This document shows positions 984-20,948 of a stretch of 64,000 nucleotides of DNA, one piece after another. How positions within the stretch are numbered: the stretch's first letter is position 1; every line of letters starts with the position of its first letter. The translations under genes were made by a program, and so were the position numbers. Location of the stretch: positions 102,754 to 166,753 of the forward strand of contig JAENYD010000001.1 in NCBI GenBank assembly GCA_016842005.1, given 5' to 3'. The notes below the pieces were generated by a model. That model was not told the DNA's origin, made no database searches, and saw only the letters and a program-made list of their open reading frames with translations. The DNA is from Clostridium thermobutyricum. GTDB lineage: Bacteria > Bacillota > Clostridia > Ch29.

Positions 984-1056
984 AGTACAGTCCTCCTCAA
1001 ACATTCATAAGATATTATAATTCCGGCAGCGCTGCATAAGACCATGACAGATTATA

Positions 1057-1190
1057 AACAGGATTCTTGGCTTCAGGTGGAGTTTTAACCCCATCTGAAG
1101 CTTAGAAACCGCTATCCAGGGACGTAGCGCCGCTTATCTCCCGCCTGAAAGGACGGGAGTATCAGCGGCGGTGGTCATCGGATAAACAGT
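1057..1190 (+). repeat. Copy A of a ~140-nt structured intergenic repeat family (nested GC-rich hairpins)
   Basis: aacaggattcttggcttcaggtggagttttaaccccatctgaagcttagaaaccgctatccagggacgtagcgccgcttatctcccgcctgaaaggacgggagtatcagcggcggtggtcatcgg... About 75-80% identical to the reverse complement of 5225-5363. The first 36 nt also match the reverse complement of 20840-20877. Stems: GCTTCAG/CTGAAGC, CTCCCG/CGGGAG nested inside GCGCCGC/GCGGCG. Confidence 0.6.
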
Positions 1191-2912: not shown

Positions 2913-2954
2913 TATTGAAATACCTGGTAATAGCGCCCTTCAGGGAGAATAAAA

Positions 2955-3064
2955 AGCTTACAGTTGTATATTTTGTATACAACTGTAAGCTTTTTGCTTT
3001 CTTCTGCCATGTTTCAGGTGTATATCAAGTATACAGAATTTTGGAGTTGTATACTTAGTATACA
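2955..3064. promoter_or_regulatory. Three TGTATA-N5-TATACA inverted repeats: putative enhancer (UAS) sites for the adjacent sigma-54 activator
   Basis: Site 1 at 2965-2981 is embedded in a 37-bp near-perfect palindrome (AGCTTACAGTTGTATA ttttg TATACAACTGTAAGCT, 2955-2991). Site 2 is at 3019-3035 (TGTATAtcaagTATACA) and site 3 at 3048-3064 (TGTATActtagTATACA). Their centres sit ~65, ~120 and ~150 bp upstream of the -24/-12 element. Confidence 0.45.
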
Positions 3065-3066: not shown

Positions 3067-4863
3067 TTATTGGATGTTATATTTCTTCAATTTTTCGTAA
3101 AAGGTCCTGCGGCTTATTCCCAGGAGCTCAATGGCCCGGCTTTTATTGTTGTTGCTCATATCAAGGGCTTTTATGATGGCTTCTTTTTCAACATCGCTGA
3201 TAACCTCATCCAGCTTCCTGAAACCTGTCATCCTTTTCTTGATACCTCTGGAATCAGTCTTTTCGGTCTCCCTGAGGTATGAAGGGATTTTATCTTCAGA
3301 TACGATTTCATGGTCTGCAAGGGCAATGGCATGCTCAATCACATTTTTAAGTTCCCTTATATTCCCGGGCCAATCATATTCAAGAAGCAGTTTGAGGCAT
3401 TTATTGGAAAAAAACGCTTTTTTCCCGAATCTCCGGTTGAAATGCTCTGTATAGTACCTTATCAGGGCGAGGATATCTATTTTTCTTTCCCTTAGGGGAG
3501 GCAGATTGATAGCAAAAACATTCAGCCTGTAAAAAAGGTCTTTCCGGAATTTTTTCTGGTTCACCATACTGTACAGGTCTTTACTGGTAGCGGCAATCAC
3601 CCTGACATCCACCCTGAGAACCTCCTCTCCCCCTACCTTTTCAAATTCACCCTCCTGAAGAAACCTTAACAGCTTGGGTTGCATGGAAAGGGGCATATCC
3701 CCGATTTCATCCAGGAAAAGAGTACCTCTATGGGCCAGTTCAATTTTCCCTCTTTTCCCTCCCTTTTTGGCTCCTGTAAAAGCGCCTTCAACATACCCGA
3801 ACAGTTCGCTCTCTATCAGATTCTCAGGCAGGGCGGAACAGTTTATGGCAACAAAATCCCTGTCCCGTCTTCTACTGGCATGGTGTATGGCCTTTGCCAC
3901 AAGTTCCTTCCCAGTTCCGCTTTCTCCCAATATCAGGACACTTGAATCGGTTTTGGCAATACGGGCTGCCACAGCCAGCTCTTCTCTCAGCTTCTTGCTG
4001 TTTCCTATAATCCTGTCAAAAGCCCCGGGCAGTTTTATCTCGCTTTTCAATTCTTTCTCCAGATAGTAGTTTACTACATTCATCTTTTCCAGCTGGTTGG
4101 CCAGCTGCAGGATCTCGGTAATATCGTGAAAGGTAGAAATGGCACCCACTACCCTGTCACCCGTTTTAATGGGATTTATATTTGCAACAATGGTAGTCCC
4201 AAGGCTCTCTATCTTTATGGTCTGTTCGGTAACCGGCTTTCCTGTTTTCAGGACCTGTATTATCCTCGCGTTGGGTTCCACCTCGGAAAGATACTTGTTG
4301 GTTATATGGTGGGGCTTCACATCCAGTATCCGCATGTATGCCTTGTTTGCAAATACCACCTTTGTACTTGCGTCTACGATTACAACCCCCTCCCGAAGAC
4401 AGTCCAGGGATTCTTTTAAATATATATCATTGTTCAAAGAAAACAAACTGCTGTGCTTTTCTCCATAATTAAAGTCTTTGAATTTTCCTTCCATAAACAG
4501 ATTGAAAATATCGTTCCGGGAGATAATGCCTTTCAATCTCCCGCTGCTGTCAACCACATATCCTACCGAACATTTAGGTCTCTCTATAAACTCCTTTACA
4601 ACCTGTCTGTATGTGTATTCCTCTTCAAACTTTATGAAATTGCTGTCTGACAGCAGTTCAAGCCTGATCCCGTCATCTTGAGCTTCAAGCACATCCTTGA
4701 GCCATACCACTCCTACAAGTTTGCACCGCCCTTCTACCAGAGGAATGGATTTAAAATTATGCCCCTTGAATATCTCCACGGCTTTACGGGCTTTTTCGTC
4801 AACGTTCAGATAAATAACTTTTTCGGACATTATACTTTTCGCATTCATGCTGTTTTCCTCCAA
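3067..4863 (-). CDS. Sigma-54-dependent transcriptional activator with CBS pair, PAS, AAA+ sigma-54 interaction and Fis-type HTH domains
   Basis: N-terminal tandem CBS-like region; central AAA+ domain with GESGTGKE Walker A and GAFTGA-type motif (EGAFTGAKK), then ...TLFLDEIGDMPL...VRVIAAT; C-terminal HTH (ELLGISRRTFYEKLKKYNIQ). Confidence 0.85.
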   Translation of the reverse strand: MEENSMNAKSIMSEKVIYLNVDEKARKAVEIFKGHNFKSIPLVEGRCKLVGVVWLKDVLEAQDDGIRLELLSDSNFIKFEEEYTYRQVVKEFIERPKCSVGYVVDSSGRLKGIISRNDIFNLFMEGKFKDFNYGEKHSSLFSLNNDIYLKESLDCLREGVVIVDASTKVVFANKAYMRILDVKPHHITNKYLSEVEPNARIIQVLKTGKPVTEQTIKIESLGTTIVANINPIKTGDRVVGAISTFHDITEILQLANQLEKMNVVNYYLEKELKSEIKLPGAFDRIIGNSKKLREELAVAARIAKTDSSVLILGESGTGKELVAKAIHHASRRRDRDFVAINCSALPENLIESELFGYVEGAFTGAKKGGKRGKIELAHRGTLFLDEIGDMPLSMQPKLLRFLQEGEFEKVGGEEVLRVDVRVIAATSKDLYSMVNQKKFRKDLFYRLNVFAINLPPLRERKIDILALIRYYTEHFNRRFGKKAFFSNKCLKLLLEYDWPGNIRELKNVIEHAIALADHEIVSEDKIPSYLRETEKTDSRGIKKRMTGFRKLDEVISDVEKEAIIKALDMSNNNKSRAIELLGISRRTFYEKLKKYNIQ

Positions 4864-5224
4864 TTATTAAAAAGCTGTCTGTCAATGGGTCAACAACTGT
4901 GCCCGGAATATAATATAATTCTATAAGATATCAGAAAACCCTTTTTACTATCATTTGCCAGGTTCAGAGACCTTCATCCTGTGCCCGGAGTAAGATAATA
5001 GGGAGTAGATGGTGGATGCATATGAGGTTGTAAAACCTTAAAGGATAGAAAAAAACTCGTGAGGGAAAAGTATCTGAACCTCCGCTCTCTTATACACGAT
5101 AACTCGCCTTGAGGCGCAAGGTTTTTGAGGAAAACCGGCAACAATAATCTTATTCTTTACTGGCGGTGAAGCATACTGCTGAAAATCCAACTGGCTTCCA
5201 TAGAAAAAGCCGGGGTTAGTCCCT

Positions 5225-5363
5225 GGCTTAGAATTTTGTCCGATGTTACCGCCGTCAATACTTCTGTCCTTTTATGCGGGAGATAGTCGGCGCTACGCCC
5301 CCGGATAACGGATTTCAAGCTTCAGATGGGGTTCAAACCCCGCCTGTAGCTTGAAATCCTGTC
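5225..5363 (-). repeat. Copy B of the structured intergenic repeat family, inverted relative to copy A
   Basis: The reverse complement of 5225-5363 aligns with 1057-1190. Shared blocks: ggtttgaaccccatctgaagctt, gaaatccgttatccgggggcgtagcgccg, ctatctcccgc, gacggcggt, catcgga. Confidence 0.6.
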
Positions 5364-6049
5364 TATAGCTTCAGTTCCCCTATATTCCCCAACCCTTCAT
5401 ATGAAATAAGGTTCAATTGAGCTTCTGTTGATTTGATATGCTCTTCTATAGCCTTCACAGATTTTGATGCGTCCTTTTGTCTCAATGCTTCAAGAATATC
5501 ATGATGCTGATCGGGAGTAAAATACTGTTTTTCCAGCATAGGGTCATTGAGTATATAAAACACATCGTATATATCAGTCTTGATAATAATGTCCTTTACG
5601 TAATTATACAGACATTTATTACCGGTGATTTTAGCTATTGCTTTGTGAAAATCTGCTCCAAGTGTATAGGCCTCTGCACGATTTTTTACCATATACGCGT
5701 TTTTTTCTTTTTCCAGTATCTGTTCCAGTCTTTCTATGTCCTCATGGGATGCCCTCTCAGAAGCAATTCTGACAGACATTTTCTCTATTTCAACTCTTAC
5801 CGCAAAAGCATCTTTAATCTCATCATAGGTTTTTTTGGTTACAAATGCACCTTTGTTTGGAATGATTGCCAGCAAGCCATCTCTTTCTAAAAGTTTAAGA
5901 GCCGTGTGCACCGGGGTCCTGCTAACATTAAGAATATCTGCTATCTCACTTTCCACCAGCTTATAGTTGGGAGGGAACTTATTTAACATAATAGCTTTCT
6001 TGAGTTTTTCATATACAATATCATCCAGTGTTTTTTTATCTTTTTTCAA
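5363..6049 (-). CDS. GntR-family transcriptional regulator (FadR/FCD C-terminal domain)
   Basis: N-terminal wHTH (ESEIADILNVSRTPVHTALKLLERDGLL) followed by an all-helical FCD-like domain. Confidence 0.8.
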   Translation of the reverse strand: MKKDKKTLDDIVYEKLKKAIMLNKFPPNYKLVESEIADILNVSRTPVHTALKLLERDGLLAIIPNKGAFVTKKTYDEIKDAFAVRVEIEKMSVRIASERASHEDIERLEQILEKEKNAYMVKNRAEAYTLGADFHKAIAKITGNKCLYNYVKDIIIKTDIYDVFYILNDPMLEKQYFTPDQHHDILEALRQKDASKSVKAIEEHIKSTEAQLNLISYEGLGNIGELKL

Positions 6050-6180
6050 TGCACCTACCTCCTAGGGTCTGCTTAAGAATCATTGTTTATTGGAAACACT
6101 GTTGTCTTTCAATAGATAATCGGCTGAATATATTATATATAAAGATACAGTTTATGCAAAGTATTCTGTTTCTAAAAATA

Positions 6181-7173
6181 TTAAGCATCACAATGACGAT
6201 TGTCTGCAGCAACAGGGCATGCTACAAAGTGGTCTTCACTGATTTGTATCAAATCAGGCCTCTGACGCATACACTGACTGCATGAATACGTGCATCTTGG
6301 ATGAAATGTACATCCCTCCGGCGGATTTATTGGGTTTGGAATATCTCCTTGAAGAATAATTCTATCTTTGATTATTTTTGGATTAGGTTCAGGTATTGCT
6401 GAGAGCAGGGCTTTGGTATAGGGATGGACAGGATTTTTAAATATAGTTTTGCTGTAAGCCAGTTCAACTATTCTTCCCAGGTACATAACCCCTACCTTAT
6501 CACTGATATGCTTTATAACGCTCAAATCATGAGAAATAAAAATATATGTCAGATTAAACTCTTTTTGTAAATCTTTTAAAAGGTTCAATATCTGGGCCTG
6601 TACTGAAACATCGAGGGCAGATACTGCTTCATCACATATTATAAGCTTAGGATGCAGGGATAGGGCTCTGGCAATACAAATTCTCTGTCTTTGACCTCCG
6701 CTGAACTCATGGGGATATCTTCCATAATGTTCACTGTTTAAGCCGACAATTTCAAGTAAATGCCTAACCCTTTTTTCCCTTTCCTTTTTATCGGGAATAA
6801 TATTGAAAACCAGGAGAGGCTCACCAATAATCTTCCCTACCGTCATTTTGGGGTTTAAAGAAGCGTAGGGGTCCTGAAATACAATCTGTATATCCCGTCG
6901 GAGTTTACGCATATCTTTCCCTTTTAGACTATATATGTTAGTACCTTCAAAAATACACTGCCCATCGGTAGGCTCAATCAGCCTCAGGATCAAACGCCCG
7001 AGAGTACTTTTTCCGCAACCGCTTTCGCCGACAAGGCCAAAGGTTTCTCCCCGTCGTATTGCTAAAGAAACACCATCTACTGCCTTGACATAACCTTTAA
7101 TATTTGATAGCATACCTGAGCGCACAGTAAAATATTTTTTCAGGTCTTTGGTTTCAAGTAATACATCCCGCAT
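6181..7173 (-). CDS. Oligopeptide/dipeptide ABC transporter ATP-binding protein (OppF/DppF type)
   Basis: Walker [10 protein letters not shown], signature LSGGQRQR, Walker [13 protein letters not shown], and the C-terminal Cys-rich oligopeptide-ABC extension. Confidence 0.85.
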
Positions 7174-8165
7174 TATGATTCACCCCCAGTACTTCCATTC
7201 AAGGGATTCCAACAGCATATCCTATGATTATTATGCATTATTCGGGATTGTGGCTCTTCTTTCTTGCACTGTTCCGTTACGTATTTGCACCGGGGTGCGA
7301 ATCTGCATCCTTTCGGCATATTAAGAGGATCCGGCAGTCCCCCTTCAATAGTGTTCAGCCTGTCACGATCTTTTTCAAGGGTTGGGATTGAATCCAGCAA
7401 TGCCTGGGTATACGGATGAGCAGGTTTCTCAAAAATGGTCTCAATATCTGCTTCCTCCATAATTTTACCCGCATACATTACGCAAACCCTGCTACACATC
7501 TGTGCTACAACCCCCATATCATGGGTGACCAGTAGTATGGAAGTATTAAACTGTCTGTTAATATCCCTTATGAGATCCAGTATTTGAGCCTGTATAGTGA
7601 CATCCAGGGCGGTGGTGGGTTCGTCTGCAATCAGCAACTGAGGATTACACGCTAATGCCATCGCTATCATTACCCTTTGACGCATACCCCCTGAAAACTG
7701 GTGCGGATAGTTATTGATGCGTTTTTCAGGCGAAGGTATATCTACTAGGTCGAGCAGTTCTATAGACTTTTTTAGTGCTTCCCTATTATTCATACCGGTA
7801 TGTATTGAAAATGCTTCTATTAGCTGGTTTCCTATGGTATACACCGGGTTTAACGAGGTCATTGGTTCCTGAAATATCATTGAAATTTGATTTCCTCTTA
7901 TTCTTCTCATCTGCTCATTGGTCTTCTTTAGCAGGTCTTCACCACGGAAAATTATTTCACCGCCCGCTATTTTCCCCGGAGGATTTGGCACCAACTGCAT
8001 TACCGATAAGGAAGTAACACTTTTACCGCTGCCGCTTTCGCCTACCAGGCCTAAAATTTCACCATTTCCAATGCTGAAACTAATACCATCGACCGCCGTA
8101 ACTCTTCCCCTTTCAGTGTTGAATACAGTTGTTAAGTTCTTAACTTCCAAAGTTATATTACTCAT
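7173..8165 (-). CDS. Oligopeptide/dipeptide ABC transporter ATP-binding protein (OppD/DppD type)
   Basis: GESGSGKS, FSGGMRQR, LLIADEPTTALD. The likely true start is MSNITLEV, preceded by RBS AGGAGTG. Its stop overlaps the downstream ATPase gene. Confidence 0.85.
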   Translation of the reverse strand: MSNITLEVKNLTTVFNTERGRVTAVDGISFSIGNGEILGLVGESGSGKSVTSLSVMQLVPNPPGKIAGGEIIFRGEDLLKKTNEQMRRIRGNQISMIFQEPMTSLNPVYTIGNQLIEAFSIHTGMNNREALKKSIELLDLVDIPSPEKRINNYPHQFSGGMRQRVMIAMALACNPQLLIADEPTTALDVTIQAQILDLIRDINRQFNTSILLVTHDMGVVAQMCSRVCVMYAGKIMEEADIETIFEKPAHPYTQALLDSIPTLEKDRDRLNTIEGGLPDPLNMPKGCRFAPRCKYVTEQCKKEEPQSRIMHNNHRICCWNPLNGSTGGES

Positions 8166-8192
8166 AATTATCACTCCTGCCTGCAACATATA

Positions 8193-9119
8193 TCAGTCTT
8201 CCGCATCAAACCGGATTCTGGGATCAAGGTATGAATATGTTAAATCGGTCAATAAATTTACAGCAACGAAGGTTATAGCTAAAATGAATACTACCGCCTG
8301 AACAACGGGATAATCCCTCTGTCCTATTGCAGTTATTACCAATCTGCCGATCCCAGGCCATTCAAAAACACTTTCTGTTACCACCGCACCCCCAAGAAGT
8401 TTCCCGAACTGCAGTCCTACCACGGTAACCAGAGGTATAAGACTATTTTTTAACGCATGCTTGAGTACTACTACCTTTTCCTTTGCTCCCTTTGCACGGG
8501 CAGTTCTCACATAATCCTCGGATAATACTTCCAGTAAACCGGATCTTGTGAGACGACTTATCATCGCAAGGTAGAATGACCCCAGTGCAACCATAGGGAG
8601 TACAAGATGCCTGAAAGTACCGCGGCCTGAAGTAGGGAATAATCCCAATTTTACAGAAAACACAATGACAAGCATTATACCCAGCCAAAATGTCGGCATA
8701 GACTGCAATCCCAAGGCTATTCCCATGGAGGTGTAGTCTGCCAGTGTATTTCTTTTAACTGCCGCAATTATCCCCATAGGAACTGCAAAAATAATAGCGA
8801 ACACCATAGCCGACACTGCAAGTTCAAGAGTTGCGGGAAGTCTTTCGATAGCAATTTGAAAGGCGGGTCTCCTGTGAACCATCGAAAGGCCAAAGTCGCA
8901 TTTTACAGCACCTTTTAAAAACCTGGCGTATTGTATATAGATAGGGTCATCGTATCCGAGGGAATGCCGGAATTCAGCAATCTGCGCATCGGTTGCATCG
9001 GGAGGCAGCAGTAATTGTGCTGGGTCTCCTGAAAGATGCATGATAAAGAATGTCACTACAGAGACCCCTAAAACTACAATAACAGCCTGTGGGAGCTTCC
9101 TTAACAAGTATTGTACCAT
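8193..9119 (-). CDS. ABC transporter permease (DppB/OppB type)
   Basis: N-terminal MVQYLLRKLPQAVIVVLGVSVVTFF... plus an EAA-like loop, typical of DppB. Confidence 0.85.
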   Translation of the reverse strand: MVQYLLRKLPQAVIVVLGVSVVTFFIMHLSGDPAQLLLPPDATDAQIAEFRHSLGYDDPIYIQYARFLKGAVKCDFGLSMVHRRPAFQIAIERLPATLELAVSAMVFAIIFAVPMGIIAAVKRNTLADYTSMGIALGLQSMPTFWLGIMLVIVFSVKLGLFPTSGRGTFRHLVLPMVALGSFYLAMISRLTRSGLLEVLSEDYVRTARAKGAKEKVVVLKHALKNSLIPLVTVVGLQFGKLLGGAVVTESVFEWPGIGRLVITAIGQRDYPVVQAVVFILAITFVAVNLLTDLTYSYLDPRIRFDAED

Positions 9120-9202
9120 ACCACCACTCCTATGATTAATAAGGTTTGTGGTTAGGGGCCATATGACCCCTAACCATCATCTTATTCTTTCTGCTGTCCT
9201 TT

Positions 9203-10738
9203 TTACCGTTTTTCCACGTTGTACATGAATACCATGCCATCAACCGGTGCTTCAAAGTTGACATTTGCCCTGTATGCATAGTAGGCTTCCTGATTGTACA
9301 GGTAACCCCATGCTGCATCGTCATAAAGCAATTTGTGTATTTGCTTATAGATATCTTCACGGGAGCTTTGGTCCATTGTAGACCTTCCTTTATCAAGAAG
9401 CTCGTCAACCTTGGTATTCTTATAGTAGTAACCTCTTGCTTCAGAATGGAAAAGCGAATACAGGTATCTGTCCGGCTCTATTTGCGTGTCCCAGGTAAAC
9501 AGATAAGACTGGAACTCCCTGTTTTTGTAGCGTTGAAATTGAGTGGCGGGGTCTGTTATATCAAGTTCCACTTTAATTCCAACCTCTCCCAGCTGGGCAG
9601 CTATAGCCTGGGCAACATCAAGGGTATTGGTTGTTCCTTCAACCCCCTGGGGTGGGGTAGCCAACCTAAGGGTGAAACCGTCTTCACATCCTGCTTCCTT
9701 AAGCAGTTGCTTTGCCTTTTCCGGATCATAGGGATATGGTTTAATGCTATCATCAAATCCCTTTGTGCATCTGAATACAGGACCGGCCATAGGCCTTGCT
9801 GTACCCAGAAGAATATTCTCAACTATAGCGTCTTTATCAATAGCATAGTTAATTGCTTGCCGTACCTTCACGTTGTCCAGGGGCGCATTAAAGGTATCAA
9901 GTCCCATATAAAGCATCACACCTGTCTTGGCTGAGGTCTTGATATCCGGATTATCCTGCAATTCTTTCAGCCTATTTGGAGGTACCGATGTTATAATATC
10001 GACTTCCCCTGTAGTCAGGGATGCTACACGGGTTGAAGCTTCAGAAATAGGCCTGAAAATAATCTTATCGACTTTCGGTGCTCCCTTCCAGTAGCCTTTA
10101 TTCGCTTTTAGGACGACCTTTTCTCCGGGTACGAATTCCTCAAAGATGAAAGGCCCGGAACCTATGGGATTTTGTCCAAACTCAATATTCCCCATTTCCT
10201 CAACAGCCTTTGGAGGTACAATAAACATTAGTGTCATTATATTAAGAAGTGCTGCATAGGGCTGCTTTGTTTTAATGATTACCGTTTTTGCATCGGGTGC
10301 CTGAACATCTTCGACCAGGCTGAGCCTCCAGGCCTGGGGAGATTTTACCTCAGGGTCCATTATCCTGTCCAGGGAATACTTAACCGCATTGGCATCAACG
10401 GGTTCACCGTTGGTGAATGTAATGCCTTCTCTCAAATGAAATATCCATGTGTTCTTATCCGGGTTCTCCCATGACTCTGCAAGCCATGGTTCGTATTCGT
10501 AATTCTGATTTATCCTTATCAGTGTATCGAAAATGTTATTCGATATGTTTTGAGTCTCGGTCTGAGATGCAAGGGCATAATCAAGGGCTGTGACATCCCT
10601 TGTCTGTGCTATGACAACGACAATCTCTTCGGCTCCACCGCTGCCAGCATTATCATTTTCTGCACTGTTGGAACACGAAGTGAGTAAAGGTACAATACAT
10701 AATGTTAGTACCAGCACTCCAAACAACATTTTTCTCAT
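9203..10738 (-). CDS. ABC transporter substrate-binding lipoprotein, family 5 (DppA/OppA/NikA-like)
   Basis: Lipoprotein signal sequence (LLTSCSNS) and a 511-aa cluster-C solute-binding protein fold. Confidence 0.8.
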   Translation of the reverse strand: MRKMLFGVLVLTLCIVPLLTSCSNSAENDNAGSGGAEEIVVVIAQTRDVTALDYALASQTETQNISNNIFDTLIRINQNYEYEPWLAESWENPDKNTWIFHLREGITFTNGEPVDANAVKYSLDRIMDPEVKSPQAWRLSLVEDVQAPDAKTVIIKTKQPYAALLNIMTLMFIVPPKAVEEMGNIEFGQNPIGSGPFIFEEFVPGEKVVLKANKGYWKGAPKVDKIIFRPISEASTRVASLTTGEVDIITSVPPNRLKELQDNPDIKTSAKTGVMLYMGLDTFNAPLDNVKVRQAINYAIDKDAIVENILLGTARPMAGPVFRCTKGFDDSIKPYPYDPEKAKQLLKEAGCEDGFTLRLATPPQGVEGTTNTLDVAQAIAAQLGEVGIKVELDITDPATQFQRYKNREFQSYLFTWDTQIEPDRYLYSLFHSEARGYYYKNTKVDELLDKGRSTMDQSSREDIYKQIHKLLYDDAAWGYLYNQEAYYAYRANVNFEAPVDGMVFMYNVEKR

Positions 10739-10758
10739 TTTCTACTCCTCCTTGTAAT

Positions 10759-11661
10759 TTATTCCACCTCTGACACCGACAATTTGGGGTCATATGCGTC
10801 TCTCAATCCATCACCGAAAAGGTTTACCCCCAGCACTGTGAGCATAATTGCAATACCGGGGAAAGTTGCTACCCACCATCCATCATAAATATACTGCCTC
10901 CCCTCGCTGAGCATACCACCCCATGTAGGATGTGGCGGGGGAACACCCAGGCCGAGAAAGCTCAGGGAGGATTCTGATATGATTATTCCAGCCAGAGACA
11001 GGGTTGCTATTACTATGATGGATGCAAATATGTTCGGGAAAATGTGGAAGACCATGATACGAAAATCACTGCAACCTATAGCTCTTGCCGCTTCTATGTA
11101 TTCCTTCTCTTTAACCGACAGAACGGCTCCACGGGTGACCCTGGCATAAACCACCCAGTTGGCGATGCCAAAAACTATGATTAGATTTATTGTGCTGGTA
11201 CCCAAAACCGCAATTACTGCAATTGAAAGTAGTATAAGCGGGAATGCCAGCTGGATGTCCCCCAGTCTGCTGATTACGGAATCCAGTAAACCTCCGTGAT
11301 ACCCGGCAACTAGGCCTAACGCTACTCCTAGAACGCTTGAGATAATGGTAGAAGAGAAACTAACTAACAAAGACTTTCTTGAACCGAAAATTACCCTGCT
11401 AAACACATCTCTCCCCAAACTATCAGTACCCAGCGGATATTTTAAACTCCCACCCTTGAGCCAGAATGGGGGTTTAAGCCTTTGCTCGAGGTTAACCTCT
11501 TCAGGGTCATGGGGAGTAATATATGGAGCAAACAATGCTGTTAAGATTACGAAAATAACTATTATTAAACCTAACACCGCTGTTTTTCTCTTCAATAACC
11601 TTTTCAAACAGTCACCTCCAGCAAGAATATATTTAGAGGGGTACTTAACGCAGCATCGCAT
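10759..11661 (-). CDS. ABC transporter permease (DppC/OppC type). The start is probably an internal alternative codon.
   Basis: Conserved DppC N-terminal domain and EAA motif region (YIEAARAIGCSDFRIMVFHIFPN). Confidence 0.8.
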   Translation of the reverse strand: MRCCVKYPSKYILAGGDCLKRLLKRKTAVLGLIIVIFVILTALFAPYITPHDPEEVNLEQRLKPPFWLKGGSLKYPLGTDSLGRDVFSRVIFGSRKSLLVSFSSTIISSVLGVALGLVAGYHGGLLDSVISRLGDIQLAFPLILLSIAVIAVLGTSTINLIIVFGIANWVVYARVTRGAVLSVKEKEYIEAARAIGCSDFRIMVFHIFPNIFASIIVIATLSLAGIIISESSLSFLGLGVPPPHPTWGGMLSEGRQYIYDGWWVATFPGIAIMLTVLGVNLFGDGLRDAYDPKLSVSEVE

Positions 11662-11736
11662 CAGGTCATAATATGAACACCACCTTTAGATAATCTATTA
11701 CTGTTTAATAGCCTTCGCTGATTACCTCTCAGAAAA

Positions 11737-12855
11737 TTAAAAACCATCTTCAAAGAACCTAATTGTAGACCTGTAGAGGGCCCTTTCATAAGGGTTATCG
11801 CTGTCTATGGAAAGGTTATATCCTTTGTTTACTAAAATGCTTATAAGTGGTATCAACTGGTCTTCGTATATGCGCATAGCCCTTTCAGGGAACACCCCTG
11901 GCCACCCGTTGCAGCTAACTACCACCCTCCTGTGAATAGTGCTGATACCGGGCGGAATATCATTATACTCGGGTGCATCAGTTTCAAAAACATACTTGTC
12001 AAGGGTCCCGTAAGGGATTCCCTCTATCGCCTTGACTTGTACCGGGTCCTTTGATGCATCATACGGGTCGGCAGTCAAATCAAGGATTATTGTGTCTTTC
12101 TTGAAGTATTCTATCAAATCATTGGTTATTATGTATTTTGTAAAATCCACTCGTTTGGTAGCATCAATTAACAGGTCAGTGACAGCAAATATTTTTTTTA
12201 ACTCTTCCTTTAGATGTGTGGTATCCTTTTCCAGATAGGTCAGTATCATTCCCGGTATTTTCTTAGAGACACCCTTATTGTTAATCTTTTCCTCCATATA
12301 TTTAAAACAGGCATATCCCGCATTAATACCCAGGTTTCCCATACCCAGGACCGTAATGTAGTAGGGAGGCCTATCTTCAGAATAAAAGTCGTTTCTTCTT
12401 TTTTCCATTTCATCAACTGCGGTGCATACACCAGCCCATGCAGTTTGTTCATAAGTTACCACCATTCTTTGATTAGCATCGTTCACAATGGAATCTAGAG
12501 AAAATGAGTTCACCTTTTTTTTCTTGAGCGCTTCTCTCAACTCCGGTTTGGAATCGTAATGCAACATGGAAAGAAGGCCGGCGTTCTCTTTCATATTGTT
12601 TATCTCATCATAATTTGGTGCTCTTAATACAATAATCAGGTCCTGCTGGAACACCTCTTTATTGTTTACAAACCGGACTCTTCTGTTTACTTTTTTATAA
12701 TCCTCTTTTGTGAAACCCATTTTGTTCCCGTACCCTTCCTCCATATACACGTCAACATCATATTTATTGAGCTTTTCTATGAAACTGGGAAGAAAGGCTC
12801 TTCTTTCTCCGGCTTCTTTATGCATTACCGGAAGACCAATAGTTTTGATTTTCAT
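11737..12855 (-). CDS. AlaDH/PNT-family NAD(P)-dependent oxidoreductase, N5-(carboxyethyl)ornithine synthase (CEOS)-like opine-type enzyme
   Basis: N-terminal MKIKTIGLPVMHKEAGERRAFLPSFIEKL...DVYMEEGYG and Rossmann motif VLGMGNLGINAGY match the AlaDH/PNT architecture. It is the first gene of the Dpp-family operon. Confidence 0.5.
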   Translation of the reverse strand: MKIKTIGLPVMHKEAGERRAFLPSFIEKLNKYDVDVYMEEGYGNKMGFTKEDYKKVNRRVRFVNNKEVFQQDLIIVLRAPNYDEINNMKENAGLLSMLHYDSKPELREALKKKKVNSFSLDSIVNDANQRMVVTYEQTAWAGVCTAVDEMEKRRNDFYSEDRPPYYITVLGMGNLGINAGYACFKYMEEKINNKGVSKKIPGMILTYLEKDTTHLKEELKKIFAVTDLLIDATKRVDFTKYIITNDLIEYFKKDTIILDLTADPYDASKDPVQVKAIEGIPYGTLDKYVFETDAPEYNDIPPGISTIHRRVVVSCNGWPGVFPERAMRIYEDQLIPLISILVNKGYNLSIDSDNPYERALYRSTIRFFEDGF

Positions 12856-13050
12856 TAGACAATGTGCCTCCTTCTAATTCATCCATATACGCATGCATAA
12901 TAGTATTCATGATTGCATGCAATTTTGTATTTGGCGTAGTATTCTATTTTTATCCTGTGATTCCTTCTTTTTTTTTTATTTAGCGTTAAATTTTTTGGTT
13001 TAAAATAAATCCTGTAAAATACCTTGCCAAATTGCAGGTAAGAAAATAGA

Positions 13051-13113
13051 AAAAAAAAACGATACATCCTTTATCCTGGAATGTACCAACAAACCAAATA
13101 AATAGGATGTATC
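13051..13113 (-). terminator. Rho-independent terminator-like hairpin followed by a 10-nt U tract on the - strand
   Basis: GATACATCCT...AGGATGTATC inverted repeat at 13061-13070 / 13104-13113, with the A10 run at 13051-13060 giving U10 on the - strand. It lies 300 nt downstream of the LysE-family gene inside a 560-nt AT-rich spacer. Confidence 0.4.
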
Positions 13114-13417
13114 GGCCTATTAAGCCCCTACCAGAATTGAACATTGAAAACCTTAATAAAATATAATTCCTCAAGGGGTAGTTAAATTGCAAAACGGAAC
13201 AGAAAACTGCTTACTGATGAAAATAAACCGGGTATCCCCTCTGATAACGGCCCGCAGTTCACATCCCGGATATTCCAAAATCCCTGCAGCGGCCTGGGAA
13301 TGGAGCATGAGAGAATACCATGCAGAGTTCTACAATTCTATGAGGATTTGATGCTTATTGTCCAGATTTAGAAGGTTCATTCGAATACTGAATGACCCCT
13401 GGTATATGTGAATCTCC

Positions 13418-14023
13418 TTATTTCTGAAGGAGGTGTGTAATCCCGCATATGGATATGGCACTGTAGATCAACAACAACCCCATGGCGATGTTAAATGCCT
13501 TTCTGTATTTTGACAGGAACCTTTGAAACACTGCACCGAATAAAGCCCAGCAAGAAGTGGCTATAAGTGCCACCAAAGCCAGCAACACAGAAAACATTAT
13601 TAAAGCTGCATTTGTCTTATAATATGGAATGATGAAATTGGATACAACTGTTATACCATATAATATCACTTTGGGATTGGCAAATTGAAGCGTCATGCCT
13701 GTAAAAAACGAGTTTAAAGCCATATTTCCGTCCCCGTGCCCCGGCTTATCGCTTTTCATAATTCTTACTGCCAGGTATGTCATGTATACTGCCCCCACAA
13801 TTCCCATGAAGAACTTAACCCGGGGAATAATATTAAAAAGTAATAGGTTAAAGTAGCTGCACAGCACCATAATAACGACGAAACCTGTGAATATGCCCAG
13901 TAAGAATTTGAATGTCTTCCTGAATCCAAACTTACCGGCATTGACCATGGACATAATATTGTTCGGTCCCGGTGTAAAGGTTACAACCAATACATAAGAT
14001 AAAAAAGGAACAAGTTCAAGCAT
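13418..14023 (-). CDS. LysE/RhtB-family amino-acid exporter
   Basis: 201 aa, 6 TM, N-terminal MLELVPFLSYVLVVTFTPGPNN consensus of LysE-type translocators. Confidence 0.75.
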   Translation of the reverse strand: MLELVPFLSYVLVVTFTPGPNNIMSMVNAGKFGFRKTFKFLLGIFTGFVVIMVLCSYFNLLLFNIIPRVKFFMGIVGAVYMTYLAVRIMKSDKPGHGDGNMALNSFFTGMTLQFANPKVILYGITVVSNFIIPYYKTNAALIMFSVLLALVALIATSCWALFGAVFQRFLSKYRKAFNIAMGLLLIYSAISICGITHLLQK

Positions 14024-14186
14024 ATCTATACCTCCATCATATCTGTATGTTATAATACACAGGAAGTGCGTTAAAATATGTGTATGTTTTTATTATACAT
14101 CATAATGTATTGCGAGACTTAGTATGGTAATATATTATCCTGAATAACTGCCGGAAGCCGGCCGCTGAAAACATGCTAATTTTCAA

Positions 14187-14456
14187 GTGATCGGGAGAGG
14201 GGTTATATCATTGTATTACGTATATATACTGGAATGTAGAGACGGGACTTTGTATACCGGGTGGACCACTGATATTGACAAGAGGATAGCAAAGCATAAC
14301 CGGGGTAAAGGTGGCAAATATACCCGTTCAAGATATCCGGTATCATTAAAGTATTCTGAAAAATTCATGACAAGAAAAGAAGCCCTGCAGAGGGAATATG
14401 TTATTAAGCAACTGTCAAGGGAAGAAAAGGTTAAACTGATAACCGGGCAATTTTAG
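14187..14456 (+). CDS. GIY-YIG nuclease-domain protein (UPF0213 family)
   Basis: YYVYILECRDGTLYTGWTTDIDKRIAKHN...GKGGKYTR is the canonical GIY-YIG motif. Confidence 0.7.
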   Translation: MIGRGVISLYYVYILECRDGTLYTGWTTDIDKRIAKHNRGKGGKYTRSRYPVSLKYSEKFMTRKEALQREYVIKQLSREEKVKLITGQF

Positions 14457-14617
14457 TATTAGTATCTTACAAGTAAAATTTTGCGCAAATATGGCAAGAA
14501 ATTTTTGTGCAAACCTTTAGACCAGCTTATAGCAGGGATTTCAGAGGATGAAAAAATTTTTCAACTTTTTGGTCCCGGCTTGTCCGGGTTAGGAAGGGAC
14601 AAAAAATAACACGGGGG

Positions 14618-14830
14618 TTATGCCTTTCCCCCATGCTTTTCAATAAATTTTATGTACTCGCATATCAGTTCATCCAGTTTTTCGCTCAGCTCGAGAATCT
14701 TCTCCCCTTTCAGGCCGTTATGTGTCTTCTTTATTTCCTGAGTAAGTTCGGTTTTCAGACTTCTGATCCTTTCAGCCAGGTCATTTCCCCTGTTATCTTT
14801 ACCAACCATCAATAATATGCCTCCTAGCAT
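14618..14830 (-). CDS. Spo0E-like sporulation regulatory protein (aspartyl-phosphate phosphatase family)
   Basis: IRSLKTEL...LSEKLDELICEY is the Spo0E-family signature (SQELDxLI-type). Confidence 0.6.
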   Translation of the reverse strand: MLGGILLMVGKDNRGNDLAERIRSLKTELTQEIKKTHNGLKGEKILELSEKLDELICEYIKFIEKHGGKA

Positions 14831-14835
14831 TTCTG

Positions 14836-15051
14836 TTACCGTATCTTCACCGTTTCCAAAAGCAGCTCATATATCTCGACCAGTTCTGTAGCCGCTTTAA
14901 TCACTCGTTCTCCGTAATGGTATGTCAAATCCCCATAATCCGCTTTTCCCCTAACAAGGACCTCTTTTAAAACCGGATCCCTGTCAATCCTCTCTCCTAT
15001 TCTGCTGAGAACGCCCCTTGCTTCCTTTAGCGGTTCGCTCCCATATGACAT
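14836..15051 (-). CDS. Hypothetical small protein (71 aa)
   Basis: ORF only. It is charged and helical with no motif I recognise, and is co-oriented with the Spo0E-like gene. Confidence 0.3.
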   Translation of the reverse strand: MSYGSEPLKEARGVLSRIGERIDRDPVLKEVLVRGKADYGDLTYHYGERVIKAATELVEIYELLLETVKIR

Positions 15052-15333
15052 TCCCCCTTAAAGGATTTAAGCAAACTTAGATAATATTTGACTTCCAAAG
15101 GGGAAATCCTTCTTTTTGGTAAAAAAATTTCACCGCAAATTTAGGCATAACTGGCTGATATTATTGCATATTATACATAATTATACCATATTCTATAATT
15201 TTCGCATCTTTGGAAGCCGATAATACGGACTGTGCCGATTTTTGCAAACTGTCACTAAAATGGAAAACCCATAGAAGATGCATGATTCAGCCCTGATCTC
15301 CCTGTGGTTATATTCCGGACCTGTTTCTGCCAC

Positions 15334-16836
15334 CTATCTGCAGGGAAGATGAATACTAACCCTGGTACCCTCATTCACATTGCTTCTTATCTCAATCTTA
15401 CCCTTATGGCTGTCAATAATCCATTTCGCTATGGATAATCCCAGACCGTGACCTCCGGTTACCTTTGACCTTGACTTGTCCGAGCGGTAAAACCTGTCAA
15501 AGACATGGGGGATGTCTTCTGCCGGAATGCCAATACCCGTATCTTCAATGACCACAACCAGGTGATTTTTATGGGTATACAGCCCAATCTTTATTTTCCC
15601 CCCTGGCGGAGTAAATTTTATACTGTTGTCTACAAACACCCTGATTGCCTGTTTCAGTGCTTTGCGGTCTGCATAAATCCGGACGTCTCCGCCTGCTTCA
15701 GATATTATCTCATGGTCAGCATCTATAAGCTTTGTTTCCCTTACAACTTCGTCAATAAGTTCATTCATGATGAAATCTTCTTTTTGGAGTCTGTGCAGGT
15801 CCTTATCTGCCCTTGCCAGGAACAGCAGTTTTTCTGTCAGGTCCTTCATGTTCTCGGATTCACTTTTTACCGCACTGATGGACTCTTCCAGCACATTTCT
15901 GTCATCTTTCCCCCAGCGGTCCAGGAGGCTGGCATACCCTTGAATTACCGAGATGGGCGTCCTCAGTTCGTGAGAGGCATCCGATACAAACTGGTTCTGA
16001 CGCTCATAAGAATTCTGTATCCGGTCAATCATCTGGTTGAAAGTCTGAGCCAGTTCTTTCAGCTCATCCTTGGAGCCCCTTACATCAAGGCGTTTGTCTA
16101 GATTGTTAATGGTAATGGATTTGACTGTCTCAGTCATTGTTTCTATAGGCTTCAGCATTTTTCTGCTGACTCTGGAACCCACCAGGACGGATGTTAAGAC
16201 ACTAATGCTGTTTGCTGCCATCAGGACAATAAACAGCATTCTTATATACATGTTTTCGGTTTCCACTCCTTTTGTGATCTGAATGTACAATGGCCGGGCA
16301 TCTTTATTCACAGAAGTATTGAAGACCATTACCTGCCTGCCATCAATATCCCTTAAGACCGGAAGGTCGGGAAAATACTGAAACCTGTTTATCTCGTCAT
16401 TATCTGAAGATGCATATAAAACCTTTTTCCCTTCATCAAATACTGTTATATGATATTCCTCCCGCTGGGCCACCATGGTCAATTGCTCCTCGGGAAGCGC
16501 TGACGACCGGTTTATGATATACCCGATATCCTGGCTGTTCCCCCTGAGCTCTCGCCGTACCTGGTCGAATGCATAAAACCTGAATCCTACCAGGATGACA
16601 GCACTTGAAAAAAGAAGCAGCAGCGAAAACAGAAAAGCATACACCGTTGTAATTTTAAAGGTGATTGAGAACCGAAAAAGTTCTTTGATCTTCTCTACTG
16701 CAAGACCCAACAGGGGGATTGCCCTGAAAGCGGTCCTGAAGATGAGAAAAAGCCCCTTAAAACAGAGCCCCAAAAAAAACAGCAGTATCCTGAAAATCTG
16801 TTTTAATGCACTGTCCGGCTTCCTGTTATTTTTCAT
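15334..16836 (-). CDS. Sensor histidine kinase (2 TM, HAMP, HisKA, HATPase_c)
   Basis: H-box SHELRTPISVIQGYASLL; N, G1 and G2 boxes (DTGIGIPAED...GGHGLGLSI). Confidence 0.85.
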   Translation of the reverse strand: MKNNRKPDSALKQIFRILLFFLGLCFKGLFLIFRTAFRAIPLLGLAVEKIKELFRFSITFKITTVYAFLFSLLLLFSSAVILVGFRFYAFDQVRRELRGNSQDIGYIINRSSALPEEQLTMVAQREEYHITVFDEGKKVLYASSDNDEINRFQYFPDLPVLRDIDGRQVMVFNTSVNKDARPLYIQITKGVETENMYIRMLFIVLMAANSISVLTSVLVGSRVSRKMLKPIETMTETVKSITINNLDKRLDVRGSKDELKELAQTFNQMIDRIQNSYERQNQFVSDASHELRTPISVIQGYASLLDRWGKDDRNVLEESISAVKSESENMKDLTEKLLFLARADKDLHRLQKEDFIMNELIDEVVRETKLIDADHEIISEAGGDVRIYADRKALKQAIRVFVDNSIKFTPPGGKIKIGLYTHKNHLVVVIEDTGIGIPAEDIPHVFDRFYRSDKSRSKVTGGHGLGLSIAKWIIDSHKGKIEIRSNVNEGTRVSIHLPCR

Positions 16837-17551: not shown

Positions 17552-17614
17552 TTTACTATATTACTTCCATTTTTGCATTCATCAGAATAATTTGAACGAC
17601 CATATATCCAGACA

Positions 17615-20765: not shown

Positions 20766-20772
20766 ATGTCAA

Positions 20773-20819: not shown

Positions 20820-20839
20820 CTGACAGTGCCCCTGACATG

Positions 20840-20877
20840 GGGGGTCAAAACCCCGCCTGAAGCCAAGAATCCTGTTT
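20840..20877 (-). repeat. Copy C (core only) of the structured intergenic repeat family
   Basis: ggggtcaaaaccccgcctgaagccaagaatcctgttt is ~90% identical to the reverse complement of 1057-1092. It has the same orientation as copy B. Confidence 0.55.
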
Positions 20878-20948
20878 GTACTTTTCCCAAATTCAATGTA
20901 TTTTTATGGTATAATTATACTTAATATTATAAGGACAGGTGTATTACA

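What the first reader, a model, noticed from the sequence alone, without database searches (positions are those of the whole stretch)
1057..1190. Novel ~140-nt structured intergenic repeat family: three copies, two full-length in opposite orientation and one core-only
Three stretches align:
- 1057-1190 (+)
- the reverse complement of 5225-5363
- 20840-20877, which carries only the 36-nt core GGGGTYAAAACYCCRCCTGAAGCCAAGAATCCTGTT

The first two are ~75-80% identical over ~135 nt. All three sit in intergenic DNA. Each contains nested GC-rich stems (GCTTCAG/CTGAAGC; GCGCCGC..CTCCCG..CGGGAG..GCGGCG) and a GGGGTT-N-AACCCC hairpin.

Their orientation relative to the flanking genes is inconsistent, which argues against a cis-regulatory riboswitch. 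It favours a mobile or recombinogenic element: MITE-like, REP/BIME-like, or att-site-like.

Copies B and C are direct repeats that bracket 15.5 kb (5363-20840) containing topoisomerase III and the Dpp operon. That raises the possibility that they are relic attachment or recombination sites. Copy C abuts a 19-bp perfect hairpin and CCCCTGACA direct repeats.
Basis: seen in the sequence. Interest (0 to 1): 0.6.

Follow-up and report, generated by a model that had tools for sequence, protein, structure and literature searches.

The report
Small hairpin transposon copies (TTTAT-targeting)
The three stretches are two full copies and one stump of a roughly 130-base gene-less mobile DNA element found in many Firmicutes (dozens per Sporomusa genome), which inserts next to the five bases TTTAT; it is a selfish repeat, not a regulator or the scar of an inserted island.

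Summary
Copy A (1054-1186) and copy B (5235-5366, opposite strand) are 80% alike over 120 nt. Copy C (20841-20879) keeps only about 39 nt of one end.

They belong to a large dispersed repeat family, and no Rfam family matches. Other hits were in Syntrophomonas, Desulfoscipio, Peptococcaceae and Peptostreptococcaceae MAGs, a Clostridium tetani plasmid and 18 prophage contigs.

The unit has sharp borders (ATAAAG...CATCGG ATAAA) and two hairpins, with 16 of 33 base pairs showing compensatory change.

Orthologous loci in related Sporomusa genomes give filled and empty sites. The empty site carries one TTTAT; the filled site has TTTAT on both sides.

The two flanking pentamers behave differently. 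The one beside hairpin 1 is invariant (64/70). The one beside hairpin 2 varies (44/70), and never in the same way at both ends. That fits insertion 3' of a host TTTAT without duplication, as in IS200/IS605 single-strand transposons and their gene-less PATE derivatives. It also recalls Bacillus cereus bcr1.

No transposase partner was found, so this mechanism is inferred. The idea that B and C are attachment-site relics is not supported.

The parts
1054..1186 (+). Copy A: a full, intact unit, read here as ATAAACAG...CATCGGATAAA. The inferred transposon top strand is the - strand: TTTAT|CCGATGAC...CCTGTTTAT|. It lies inside an operon, between the tctA stop (1225) and the HMG-CoA reductase start (983), antisense to both.
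   Evidence: cmsearch 130 bits, E 7e-29, model positions 1-133. Folds. Flanking genes identified. Two relatives have only a 38-51 nt spacer here and no element.
1054..1058 (+). Element-borne pentamer ATAAA (TTTAT on the - strand). This is the inferred transposon-encoded motif at the right end, next to hairpin 1.
   Evidence: This motif is exactly ATAAA in 64 of 70 independent family copies.
1061..1110 (+). Hairpin 1 of copy A (GGATTCTTGGCTTCAGGTGGAG...CCCCATCTGAAGCTTAGAAACC).
   Evidence: MFE structure. Helices 1-2 of the family structure are 94-97% paired with 8 compensatory pairs.
1113..1184 (+). Hairpin 2 of copy A. It has an outer stem TATCC/GGATA, then GAC/GTC, GCCGC/GCGGC and CTCCCG/CGGGAG.
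   Evidence: MFE structure. Helices 3-6 are 90-99% paired with 8 compensatory pairs.
1182..1186 (+). Pentamer ATAAA after ...CATCGG. This is the inferred host-derived target motif (TTTAT on the - strand), lying 5' of the element's left end.
   Evidence: This position is ATAAA in only 44 of 70 family copies, with variants such as ATTAA, ATGAA, ATCAA, ATAAG and ACAAA. In copy A the identity extends to 8 nt (ATAAACAG at 1054-1061 and 1182-1189).
5235..5366 (-). Copy B: a full-length but decayed unit. Hairpin 2 is broken (CTCCCGC / CAGAAG). The pentamers are degenerate: ATAGA at 5362-5366, overlapping the GntR stop codon 5363-5365, and ACAAA at 5235-5239.
   Evidence: cmsearch 98.5 bits, E 2e-21, with mismatched pairs marked. 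Weaker fold. ORF end.
20841..20879 (-). Copy C: a stump holding only the pentamer (ACAAA, degenerate), the 5' arm and loop of hairpin 1, and the first bases of the 3' arm. It lies between the topoisomerase III stop (20765) and the UvrD-like gene start (20949).
   Evidence: One mismatch to the 35-nt core. nhmmer matches model positions 2-43. The low-scoring cmsearch extension over the neighbouring hairpin (27.6 bits) is not convincing.

Best explanation
The three stretches are copies of a gene-less, non-autonomous mobile DNA element about 128 nt long.

Architecture, read on its inferred top strand:
- a host TTTAT-like pentamer;
- then the element, starting CCGATGAC;
- hairpin 2;
- a conserved unpaired GGATAAGGG centre;
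- hairpin 1;
- the element ends with its own TTTAT.

Settled here. The family is dispersed, it moves, and it lands beside TTTAT.

Inferred mechanism. It is moved in trans by a Y1 (HUH) transposase of the IS200/IS605 type, in these steps:
1. The top strand is excised as a single-stranded circle.
2. The two subterminal hairpins are the recognition handles.
3. The circle is pasted 3' of a TTTAT on single-stranded target DNA.
4. No target duplication is made.

On this reading the element is a PATE-like derivative of an IS605-type element.

Status of the window copies:
- A is intact and sits antisense inside the tctA-HMG-CoA reductase operon.
- B is an old, decayed copy.
- C is a stump.

None of the three is likely to have a host function.

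My confidence is about 0.9 that this is a non-autonomous mobile element. It is about 0.5-0.55 that the mover is an IS200/IS605-type transposase.
For: Family and borders
91 rows are Sporomusa or Sporomusaceae, and 11 are other Bacillota genomes, mostly MAGs.
- Many matches sit at MAG contig ends, as expected of a high-copy repeat.
- Flanks become random immediately outside ATAAAG... and ...GGATAAA.

Mobility
Orthologous Sporomusa loci at 92-95% identity differ by presence of the element.
- Empty: ggaatTTTATagagtta.
- Filled: ggtatTTTAT[CCAATGACC...GTCTCGCTTTAT]agagtta.
- Two further filled/empty pairs were found.
- The window's tctA-HMGR spacer is 240 nt with copy A. Two relatives have 38-51 nt and no element.

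Pentamer asymmetry
- The pentamer beside hairpin 1 is ATAAA in 64/70 copies. The one beside hairpin 2 is ATAAA in 44/70.
- The two never deviate in the same way. Fisher p is 1e-3 to 1e-4.
- This is expected if one pentamer travels with the element and the other is host target. It is not expected for a target-site duplication.

Structure
- 95.6% of cells are paired. 16 of 33 pairs show compensatory change, against 2-6 in slid controls and 0/500 shuffles.

No orientation preference relative to genes: 21 co-directional, 23 antisense, 10 convergent, 10 divergent.

Precedent
- ISGst2 (IS605 family, Geobacillus) uses TAM TTTAT with a similar transposon-encoded end motif, and has gene-less PATE relatives (PMC10055086).
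- Group A IStrons, including some in Negativicutes, insert after TTGAT, ATTAT or TTTAT without duplication or terminal inverted repeats (PMC4227781).
Against: - No transposase partner was found. tblastn with an IS200 TnpA sequence that I recalled from memory gave nothing in about 880 kb of loci plus the window, nor in 168 kb of prophage contigs.
- ORFs next to truncated copies look like ordinary genes, judged only from the start of their translations and not run against any family library.
- Replication-strand bias, strong for IS200/IS605, is only weak here. The TTTAT strand lies on the G-rich strand in 54 of 89 copies. It is on the expected strand in 24 of 38 copies in complete genomes, assuming the origin is at position 0.
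- The left-end hairpin starts only 2-5 nt from the cleavage point, closer than in IS608.
- A sub-lineage with the central TTATCC replaced by AACTTCC has still multiplied. This weakens the idea that the centre is an essential DNA guide.
- Hairpin feet are alike at both ends only in the Sporomusa lineage, not in the window copies.
Confidence: 0.55

Rival explanations
1. A MITE in the usual sense. A DDE transposase cuts and pastes the element into TTTAT and duplicates those 5 bp. This is how bcr1 of Bacillus cereus has usually been described.
For: TTTAT (ATAAA) stands at both ends of most copies, and once in the cleanest empty site. In Sporomusa copies the ends show a weak inverted similarity: GTAGACTTAGC against GATGACTAACC, 7 of 11 (sequences).
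Against: The two pentamers are not equivalent (64/70 against 44/70 exact), and deviations are never shared. No terminal inverted repeat is conserved across sub-lineages; the window copies have none. A strict five-base target is unusual for DDE elements.
Confidence: 0.2
2. A REP/REPIN-type repeat maintained by a single-copy domesticated tyrosine transposase (RAYT). It would have a host role such as mRNA stabilisation or termination.
For: It consists of GC-rich intergenic hairpins. Each hairpin is an inverted pair of about 19-nt arms. A GTAGC or TTAGC tag sits at the foot of hairpin 2. RAYTs are Y1 enzymes, like IS200 TnpA.
Against: The unit is a fixed 128-133 nt two-hairpin module with sharp ends and a pentamer target, not a 20-40 nt palindrome in alternating arrays. 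No RAYT-like gene was seen in the loci (weak test).
Confidence: 0.08
3. A functional structured RNA (a small RNA, a cis-regulatory leader, or a guide-RNA scaffold) whose many copies are kept by selection.
For: There is strong compensatory change. A conserved G-U position exists in hairpin 1, G-U in 22 of 27 sequences. Several copies end 15-40 nt before a ribosome-binding site. One copy is conserved at the same site in 18 prophage contigs.
Against: No Rfam match even at E = 10. Orientation relative to genes is random. Neighbouring genes are unrelated. Presence/absence differs between close relatives. Decayed copies and stumps, such as B and C, are common. Both strands fold equally well.
Confidence: 0.07
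4. B and C are relic attachment or recombination sites left by integration of the 15.5 kb between them.
For: B and C lie in direct orientation.
Against: The interval carries transporters, a two-component system, LysE, an AlaDH-like gene and topoisomerase III, with no integrase or phage genes. C is 90% like A but 78% like B. The element occurs by the dozen elsewhere, so two copies in direct orientation is a 50% chance event.
Confidence: 0.02

Closest known systems
PATEs: palindrome-associated, gene-less derivatives of IS200/IS605 elements (Haloquadratum; ISGst-type PATEs of Geobacillus stearothermophilus, TAM TTTAT for ISGst2)
   Same: No protein gene and no terminal inverted repeats. A subterminal hairpin at each end. 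Insertion beside a T-rich pentamer (TTTAT). One pentamer belongs to the host and a similar one to the element. Many copies per genome, presumably moved in trans.
   Different: No matching autonomous IS or TnpA was found here. There is no detectable sequence relation to a described IS. The left hairpin is unusually close to the cleavage point. The element-borne motif is identical to the target motif (TTTAT), whereas ISGst2 has TTCAC. Replication-strand bias is only weak.
bcr1 (group A repeats bcr1-bcr3) of the Bacillus cereus group
   Same: A roughly 130-155 bp interspersed repeat. TTTAT at both ends. Variable copy number and location between relatives. Many partial copies. Predicted stable secondary structure. 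Mobility mechanism unknown.
   Different: bcr1 is reported as specific to the B. cereus group, whereas this family is in Negativicutes, Desulfotomaculia, Syntrophomonadia and Clostridia. Sequence homology could not be tested because no bcr1 sequence was available. blastn of three family members against 72,556 plasmids hit only Clostridium.
REP/BIME and REPIN elements with RAYT transposases
   Same: Intergenic GC-rich hairpins, probably handled by a Y1 HUH enzyme, with a mosaic or modular build.
   Different: REPs are 20-40 nt units in alternating arrays with a GTAG or CGTC tag and no defined insertion pentamer. This family is a fixed two-hairpin unit with sharp ends.
Classical bacterial MITEs (RUP, Correia/NEMIS, ERIC)
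   Same: Size class, intergenic location, high copy number and hairpin potential.
   Different: Those have terminal inverted repeats and a true TA or short target duplication made by a DDE transposase. Neither feature holds here.

Membership tests
IS200/IS605-derived non-autonomous element (PATE) | No terminal inverted repeats; subterminal imperfect palindromes at both ends | tested here: met
   The two hairpins are supported by covariation. The ends of the window copies show no inverted similarity. Sporomusa copies show only 7 of 11.
IS200/IS605-derived non-autonomous element (PATE) | Insertion 3' of a specific tetra- or pentanucleotide, without target-site duplication | tested here: met
   Three filled/empty pairs place the element beside TTTAT or TTAT. 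The host-side pentamer varies (44/70 exact) while the element-side one does not (64/70), with no shared deviations. This is indirect: no de novo insertion was observed.
IS200/IS605-derived non-autonomous element (PATE) | Ends match those of an autonomous IS encoding a Y1 TnpA in the same or related genomes | tested here: inconclusive
   No TnpA was found by tblastn in about 880 kb of loci or 168 kb of prophage contigs. The query was recalled from memory, and whole genomes could not be scanned.
IS200/IS605-derived non-autonomous element (PATE) | Top strand preferentially on the lagging-strand template | tested here: inconclusive
   54 of 89 by local GC skew. 24 of 38 in complete genomes, with the origin assumed at position 0. 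The direction is right but the effect is weak, and the copies are not independent.
bcr1 / group A Bacillus cereus repeats | TTTAT motif at each end; variable location between relatives; many partial copies | tested here: met
   The bcr1 features are taken from PMC6542083 and PMC6199540.
bcr1 / group A Bacillus cereus repeats | Sequence similarity to the bcr1 consensus | not testable with these tools
   The papers holding the consensus are not in the library. No Bacillus hit came from three blastn searches of plasmids.
bcr1 / group A Bacillus cereus repeats | Restricted to the Bacillus cereus group | tested here: not met
   The hosts are Sporomusa, Syntrophomonas, Desulfoscipio, Peptococcaceae and Clostridium.
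Classical MITE (DDE-mobilised) | Terminal inverted repeats plus a symmetric target-site duplication | tested here: not met
   No conserved terminal inverted repeats. The flanking pentamers are asymmetric.
REP/BIME | A 20-40 nt palindromic unit with a GTAG or CGTC tag, in alternating arrays, linked to a RAYT gene | tested here: not met
   The unit is a fixed ~133 nt with sharp ends, occurring singly. A RAYT was not searched for genome-wide.
Riboswitch or cis-regulatory RNA | Fixed orientation upstream of a conserved gene set; match to a curated family | tested here: not met
   Orientation counts were 21, 23, 10 and 10. There is no Rfam match.
Attachment sites of an integrated element | A pair of near-identical direct repeats bracketing DNA with an integrase or other mobile-element genes | tested here: not met
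   B and C are 78% alike over 40 nt. There is no integrase in 5367-20840.

The most novel reading that the evidence does not exclude
The element may be more than a passive passenger. It could be a minimal PATE that also encodes a guide-RNA scaffold. Transcripts would run through hairpin 1 and the terminal TTTAT into the flank, and would programme a TnpB-type nuclease made elsewhere to re-cut emptied sites (TTTAT + flank).

More broadly, the TTTAT-flanked hairpin repeats of Bacillota, including the mechanistically unexplained bcr1 of Bacillus cereus, may all be IS605-type single-strand transposon derivatives.
Probability: 0.15. Interest if true: 0.55.

Novelty: new member of a known kind. Interest (0 to 1): 0.3.

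Why it matters
For annotating this window, the result removes a false lead. There is no riboswitch and no island boundary here.

More generally, it defines a repeat family with exact borders, a target motif and a covariance model. I could not find this family in Rfam or in the searchable literature. It breaks MAG assemblies of Sporomusa and spans several classes of Bacillota.

The asymmetry between the two TTTAT motifs gives a concrete, testable mechanism: IS605-type single-strand transposition. The same argument could be applied to the long-unexplained bcr1 repeats. Intact copies such as A, sitting inside an operon, are also natural markers for strain typing and for testing polar effects on expression.

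Tried and rejected
- Rfam. At gathering thresholds over the whole window, and at E up to 10 over both full copies, only meaningless microRNA-type hairpin hits appeared.
- tRNA fragment idea. No tRNA lies near any copy.
- Window genome in the assembly index. An exact-protein look-up of the window's GntR and topoisomerase III found nothing, so the window's own genome is not indexed.
- Close relatives. The nearest TctA relatives are only 78-80% identical. They give a size comparison of the spacer, not a base-level empty site.
- Partner transposase. ORFs next to seven hairpin-1-only copies looked like ordinary genes from the start of their translations; none was run against a family library. tblastn with a recalled IS200 TnpA was negative.
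- bcr1 sequence. The two key papers are not held, and the Meers et al. preprint has no text supplement.
- Phage collection blastn gave no match. The general core pattern was absent from IMG/VR.
- Sigma-54 promoter or activator-binding site (the neighbour is a sigma-54 activator). I considered this by eye and dropped it: there is no GG-N10-GC match, and the family is unrelated to such genes elsewhere.
- Integron attC site. I considered this and dropped it: the GTTRRRY core is absent.
- Metagenome scan. I did not run it, because gene-less copies would swamp any rare autonomous copy.

Full report

Yes. Reading the three places and aligning them shows two full-length copies and one stump.
- Copy A is 1054-1186 on the + strand.
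- Copy B is 5235-5366 on the - strand.
- Copy C is 20841-20879 on the - strand.

The repeat finder reports the A/B arms as 120 nt and 80% complementary. It reports A/C as 40 nt and 90%, and B/C as 78%.

The 35-nt core is expected 0.00 times in shuffles of the window. A shorter core pattern hits exactly the three places, against 0.03 expected.

Both full copies fold into two hairpins far better than shuffled sequence.
- As RNA, z = -7.1 for A and -4.4 for B.
- As single-stranded DNA on either strand, z = -4.9 to -6.2.

A covariance model built later from the family finds nothing else in the window.

**2. Gene context**

Copy A lies between the stop of a TctA transporter gene (1225-2571, - strand) and the start of an HMG-CoA reductase gene (start at 983, - strand). 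It is antisense to both.

Copy B begins inside the stop codon of a GntR/FCD regulator gene (5363-6049, -). It lies upstream of a sigma-54 activator gene (3067-4863, -).

Copy C lies between topoisomerase III (18585-20765, +) and a UvrD-type helicase gene (20949-24317, +).

**3. It is not a known RNA**

Rfam finds tRNAs and a molybdenum-cofactor riboswitch elsewhere in the window, and nothing at the three sites. With permissive thresholds over A and B, only microRNA-precursor models score, far below their cut-offs. These are generic long hairpins.

**4. The family**

I scanned one genome per GTDB species for the exact core GCTNCAGGYGGRGTTTNNACCCC. By record title they break down as follows:

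| Source | Stretches |
|---|---|
| One Sporomusa MAG (SMAG_U13137) | 47 |
| Sporomusa malonica | 17 |
| S. aerivorans | 10 |
| One Sporomusaceae MAG | 5 |
| S. rhizae | 4 |
| S. silvacetica | 3 |
| S. acidovorans | 2 |
| Another Sporomusa MAG (SMAG_U13131) | 2 |
| S. ovata | 1 |
| Other Bacillota: Syntrophomonas wolfei, Syntrophomonadaceae, Desulfoscipio geothermicus, Peptococcaceae, Peptostreptococcaceae, unclassified | 11 |
| Unrelated chance hits (Poribacteria, Solibacteraceae, Sphingomonadaceae) | 3 |

Many matches in the MAG sit within 40 nt of a contig end. That is what a high-copy repeat longer than the assembly k-mer produces.

Further hits came from other collections.
- blastn against plasmids adds a full copy on Clostridium tetani plasmid p12124569 and remnants on other C. 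tetani plasmids.
- A pattern for the window's sub-lineage (ATAAACAGRRTTCTTGGCTTYAG) hits 18 IMG/VR prophage contigs.
- The window copies align to Sporomusa copies over the full length at 72-82%. The closest relative of A is in a Bacillota MAG (L018, 82%).

**5. Anatomy**

The printed copies and the flank logos show a unit with sharp borders. The sequence is random up to ATAAAG and random again straight after ...GTCATCGGATAAA.

The basic form is 130-135 nt:
- ATAAA;
- hairpin 1;
- an unpaired, highly conserved CCCTTATCCAGGGAC;
- hairpin 2;
- GTCATCGG;
- ATAAA.

Variants include:
- a short form, hairpin 1 joined directly to GTCATCGGATAAA;
- forms with palindromic extensions at the tip of hairpin 2;
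- a form with TTATCC replaced by AACTTCC;
- many truncated copies (35 of 118 non-overlapping hits are not full-length).

On a 27-sequence alignment (A2), RNAalifold predicts 33 pairs, 16 of them with compensatory changes. Counting the pairs gives 95.6% paired, against 31-47% when partners are slid. It gives 16 compensatory pairs, against 2-6 in slid controls, and 0 of 500 shuffles reach any observed measure.

The structure is therefore conserved. This holds equally for RNA and for single-stranded DNA.

**6. It moves**

All-against-all comparison of the fetched loci found orthologous pairs. Three presence/absence differences are visible at 92-95% flank identity.

- L063 has ...ggaatTTTATagagtta... 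where L100 has ...ggtatTTTAT[CCAATGACC...AAGTCTCGCTTTAT]agagtta....
- L100 has ...gggagttacTATGctgag... where L063 has ...gggaagttacTTAT[CCGATGAC...GTCTCACTTTAT]Gctgag....
- L032 has ...aaaagTTATacactg... where L038 has ...aaaaagTTTTAT[CCGATGAC...GTCTTCTTTAT]ACtgtagc....

The element is thus gained or lost as a unit beside a TTTAT-like site.

For the window itself no close relative exists in the collections. The nearest TctA proteins are 78-80% identical. In those two lineages the same operon has a tctA-HMGR spacer of 38 and 51 nt, with no match to the model. The window has 240 nt containing copy A.

**7. How it probably moves**

Orientation relative to flanking genes is random: 21 co-directional, 23 antisense, 10 convergent, 10 divergent. 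This argues against a cis-acting RNA role.

The key result is an asymmetry between the two pentamers.
- In 70 copies with distinct flanks, the pentamer next to hairpin 1 is exactly ATAAA in 64.
- The one after ...CATCGG is exact in only 44. Its variants include ATTAA, ATGAA, ATCAA, ATAAG, ATAAC, ATAAT, ACAAA and ACGAA.
- The two ends never share a deviation. Fisher p is 9e-5, or 1e-3 after dropping six doubtful parses.

A target-site duplication would make the two equal at birth, and they would decay equally. Instead, one pentamer behaves as part of the element and the other as host DNA chosen with some tolerance.

Read on the other strand, the picture is host TTTAT | CCGATGAC-hairpin 2'-GGATAAGGG-hairpin 1'-GTCTAC-TTTAT |.

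This is the architecture of IS200/IS605 elements:
- no terminal inverted repeats;
- a subterminal hairpin at each end;
- insertion 3' of a T-rich tetra- or pentamer;
- a similar motif at the element's own right end;
- no duplication.

TTTAT is the experimentally shown target-adjacent motif of ISGst2 in Geobacillus stearothermophilus. That organism also carries gene-less PATE-like derivatives moved in trans (PMC10055086). Group A IStrons, including ones in the Negativicutes Megasphaera and Megamonas, insert after TTGAT, ATTAT or TTTAT (PMC4227781).

In Sporomusa copies the two hairpins share the same foot (GACTTAGC...GGTTAGTC). That would suit one enzyme recognising both ends. The window copies do not show this.

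**8. What remains unproven**

- I found no transposase. tblastn with an IS200 TnpA sequence recalled from memory was negative on all fetched DNA.
- ORFs beside truncated copies look like ordinary genes. I judged this from the first residues of each translation and did not run them against a family library.
- Whole genomes could not be re-scanned.
- The replication-strand bias expected for single-strand transposons is only weakly present. It is 54 of 89 by local GC skew, p about 0.05 by my own normal approximation, and the copies are not independent. It is 24 of 38 in complete genomes if the origin is at coordinate 0.

I therefore put about 0.9 on "non-autonomous mobile element inserting beside TTTAT". 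I put about 0.5-0.55 on "moved by an IS200/IS605-type Y1 transposase".

**9. Comparison with known families**

The nearest described analogue by behaviour is bcr1 of the Bacillus cereus group. It is a ~155-bp interspersed repeat with TTTAT at each end and variable location, with many partial copies and a predicted structure. Its mobility mechanism is unresolved (PMC6542083, PMC6199540).

Homology to bcr1 could not be tested because no bcr1 sequence was available. bcr1's defining restriction to B. cereus is not met.

The membership table gives the reasons why classical MITEs, REP/BIME, riboswitches and attachment sites each fail a tested defining feature.

**10. The three window copies**

- A is intact. 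Both pentamers are exact, both hairpins are intact, and it scores 130 bits.
- B is decayed. Its pentamers are TTTGT and TCTAT on the top strand, hairpin 2 is broken, and it scores 98.5 bits.
- C is a stump of the hairpin-1 end.

The interval between B and C contains an Opp/Dpp-type ABC transporter, an alanine-dehydrogenase-like gene, LysE, a histidine kinase with its response regulator, and topoisomerase III. There is no integrase. C is also closer to A than to B. The relic-attachment-site idea is therefore not supported.

**11. Verdict**

This is a real and well-defined repeat, and an ordinary kind of thing: a small selfish mobile element. It is a new member of a known kind.

The modest interest lies in three points:
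- its breadth across Bacillota;
- its clean TTTAT logic;
- the hint that bcr1-type repeats are IS605-style single-strand transposon derivatives.

Noticed in passing
window 30275-30384 (-): Molybdenum/tungsten cofactor riboswitch, just above the Rfam gathering score (39.4 against 36 bits).
   Followed up: no
window 33144-33762 (-): Cluster of seven tRNA genes: Arg-tcg, Gly-tcc, Lys, Gln, His, Arg-tct, Gly-tcc. The two tRNA-Gly copies are 98% identical.
   Followed up: no
window 2950-2996: Perfect 20-bp-stem AT-rich palindrome (TAAAAAGCTTACAGTTGTATA...TATACAACTGTAAGCTTTTTG). It lies between the small ORF 2574-2867 and the sigma-54 activator gene. It could be a bidirectional terminator or an activator binding site.
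   Followed up: no
window 20767-20837; L025 460-565: Next to stump C there is a 25-nt-arm hairpin plus direct repeats of TGTCAGGGG[GC]AC. In the Desulfoscipio copy (L025), a ~170-nt insert inside hairpin 2 is made of six tandem GGGGACATTCCGAY units and ends with GTCCCCTGAC...CTGACAGGAC. The shared GGGGAC/GTCCCC motif beside or inside elements in two genomes is unexplained.
   Followed up: partly
window 1054-1061 and 1182-1189: In copy A the identity between the two junctions runs to 8 nt (ATAAACAG), three more than the pentamer. It may be chance (1 in 64). It may also be the remnant of an older copy's end, since the element's own TTTAT end is itself a target.
   Followed up: no
window 5207-5234: Copy B's host-side pentamer (TTTGT) is the T-tail of a terminator-like hairpin AAGCCGGGGTTAGTCCCTGGCTT. 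T-rich terminator tails may be frequent landing sites.
   Followed up: no
L100 ~5400-5490; also L016, L032, L005, L033 and L044 flanks: A second Sporomusa repeat family (…TAAAGAAAACACGGCTTGCGCCGAGCCTTTGGCGAAAGCGGAAG…CCCTTATCCAGACGGAAAGTTATACTTTCTTACAGGA). It is present in L100 and absent in L063. It shares ATAAAG and CCCTTATCCAG with the family studied, and sometimes abuts it.
   Followed up: partly
L110-L127 (IMG/VR prophage contigs), e.g. L111 5963-6097: The ATAAACAG sub-lineage sits at one conserved site in 18 low-GC prophage contigs. Its ATAAA contains the TAA stop of a 187-aa gene downstream of the replication genes. That gene's function was guessed by eye (late-gene regulator?) and not tested. 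About 470 nt of AT-rich non-coding DNA follows. Several copies carry an extra hairpin-1-like module inserted between the two hairpins.
   Followed up: partly
Sporomusa loci, e.g. L010, L015, L034, L044: Hairpin 2 grows by matched palindromic insertions (GCCTGTGCCCTTTGGGTATAAC on one arm and TATACCCTAAAGGGCACAGG on the other). Some copies have only one half.
   Followed up: no
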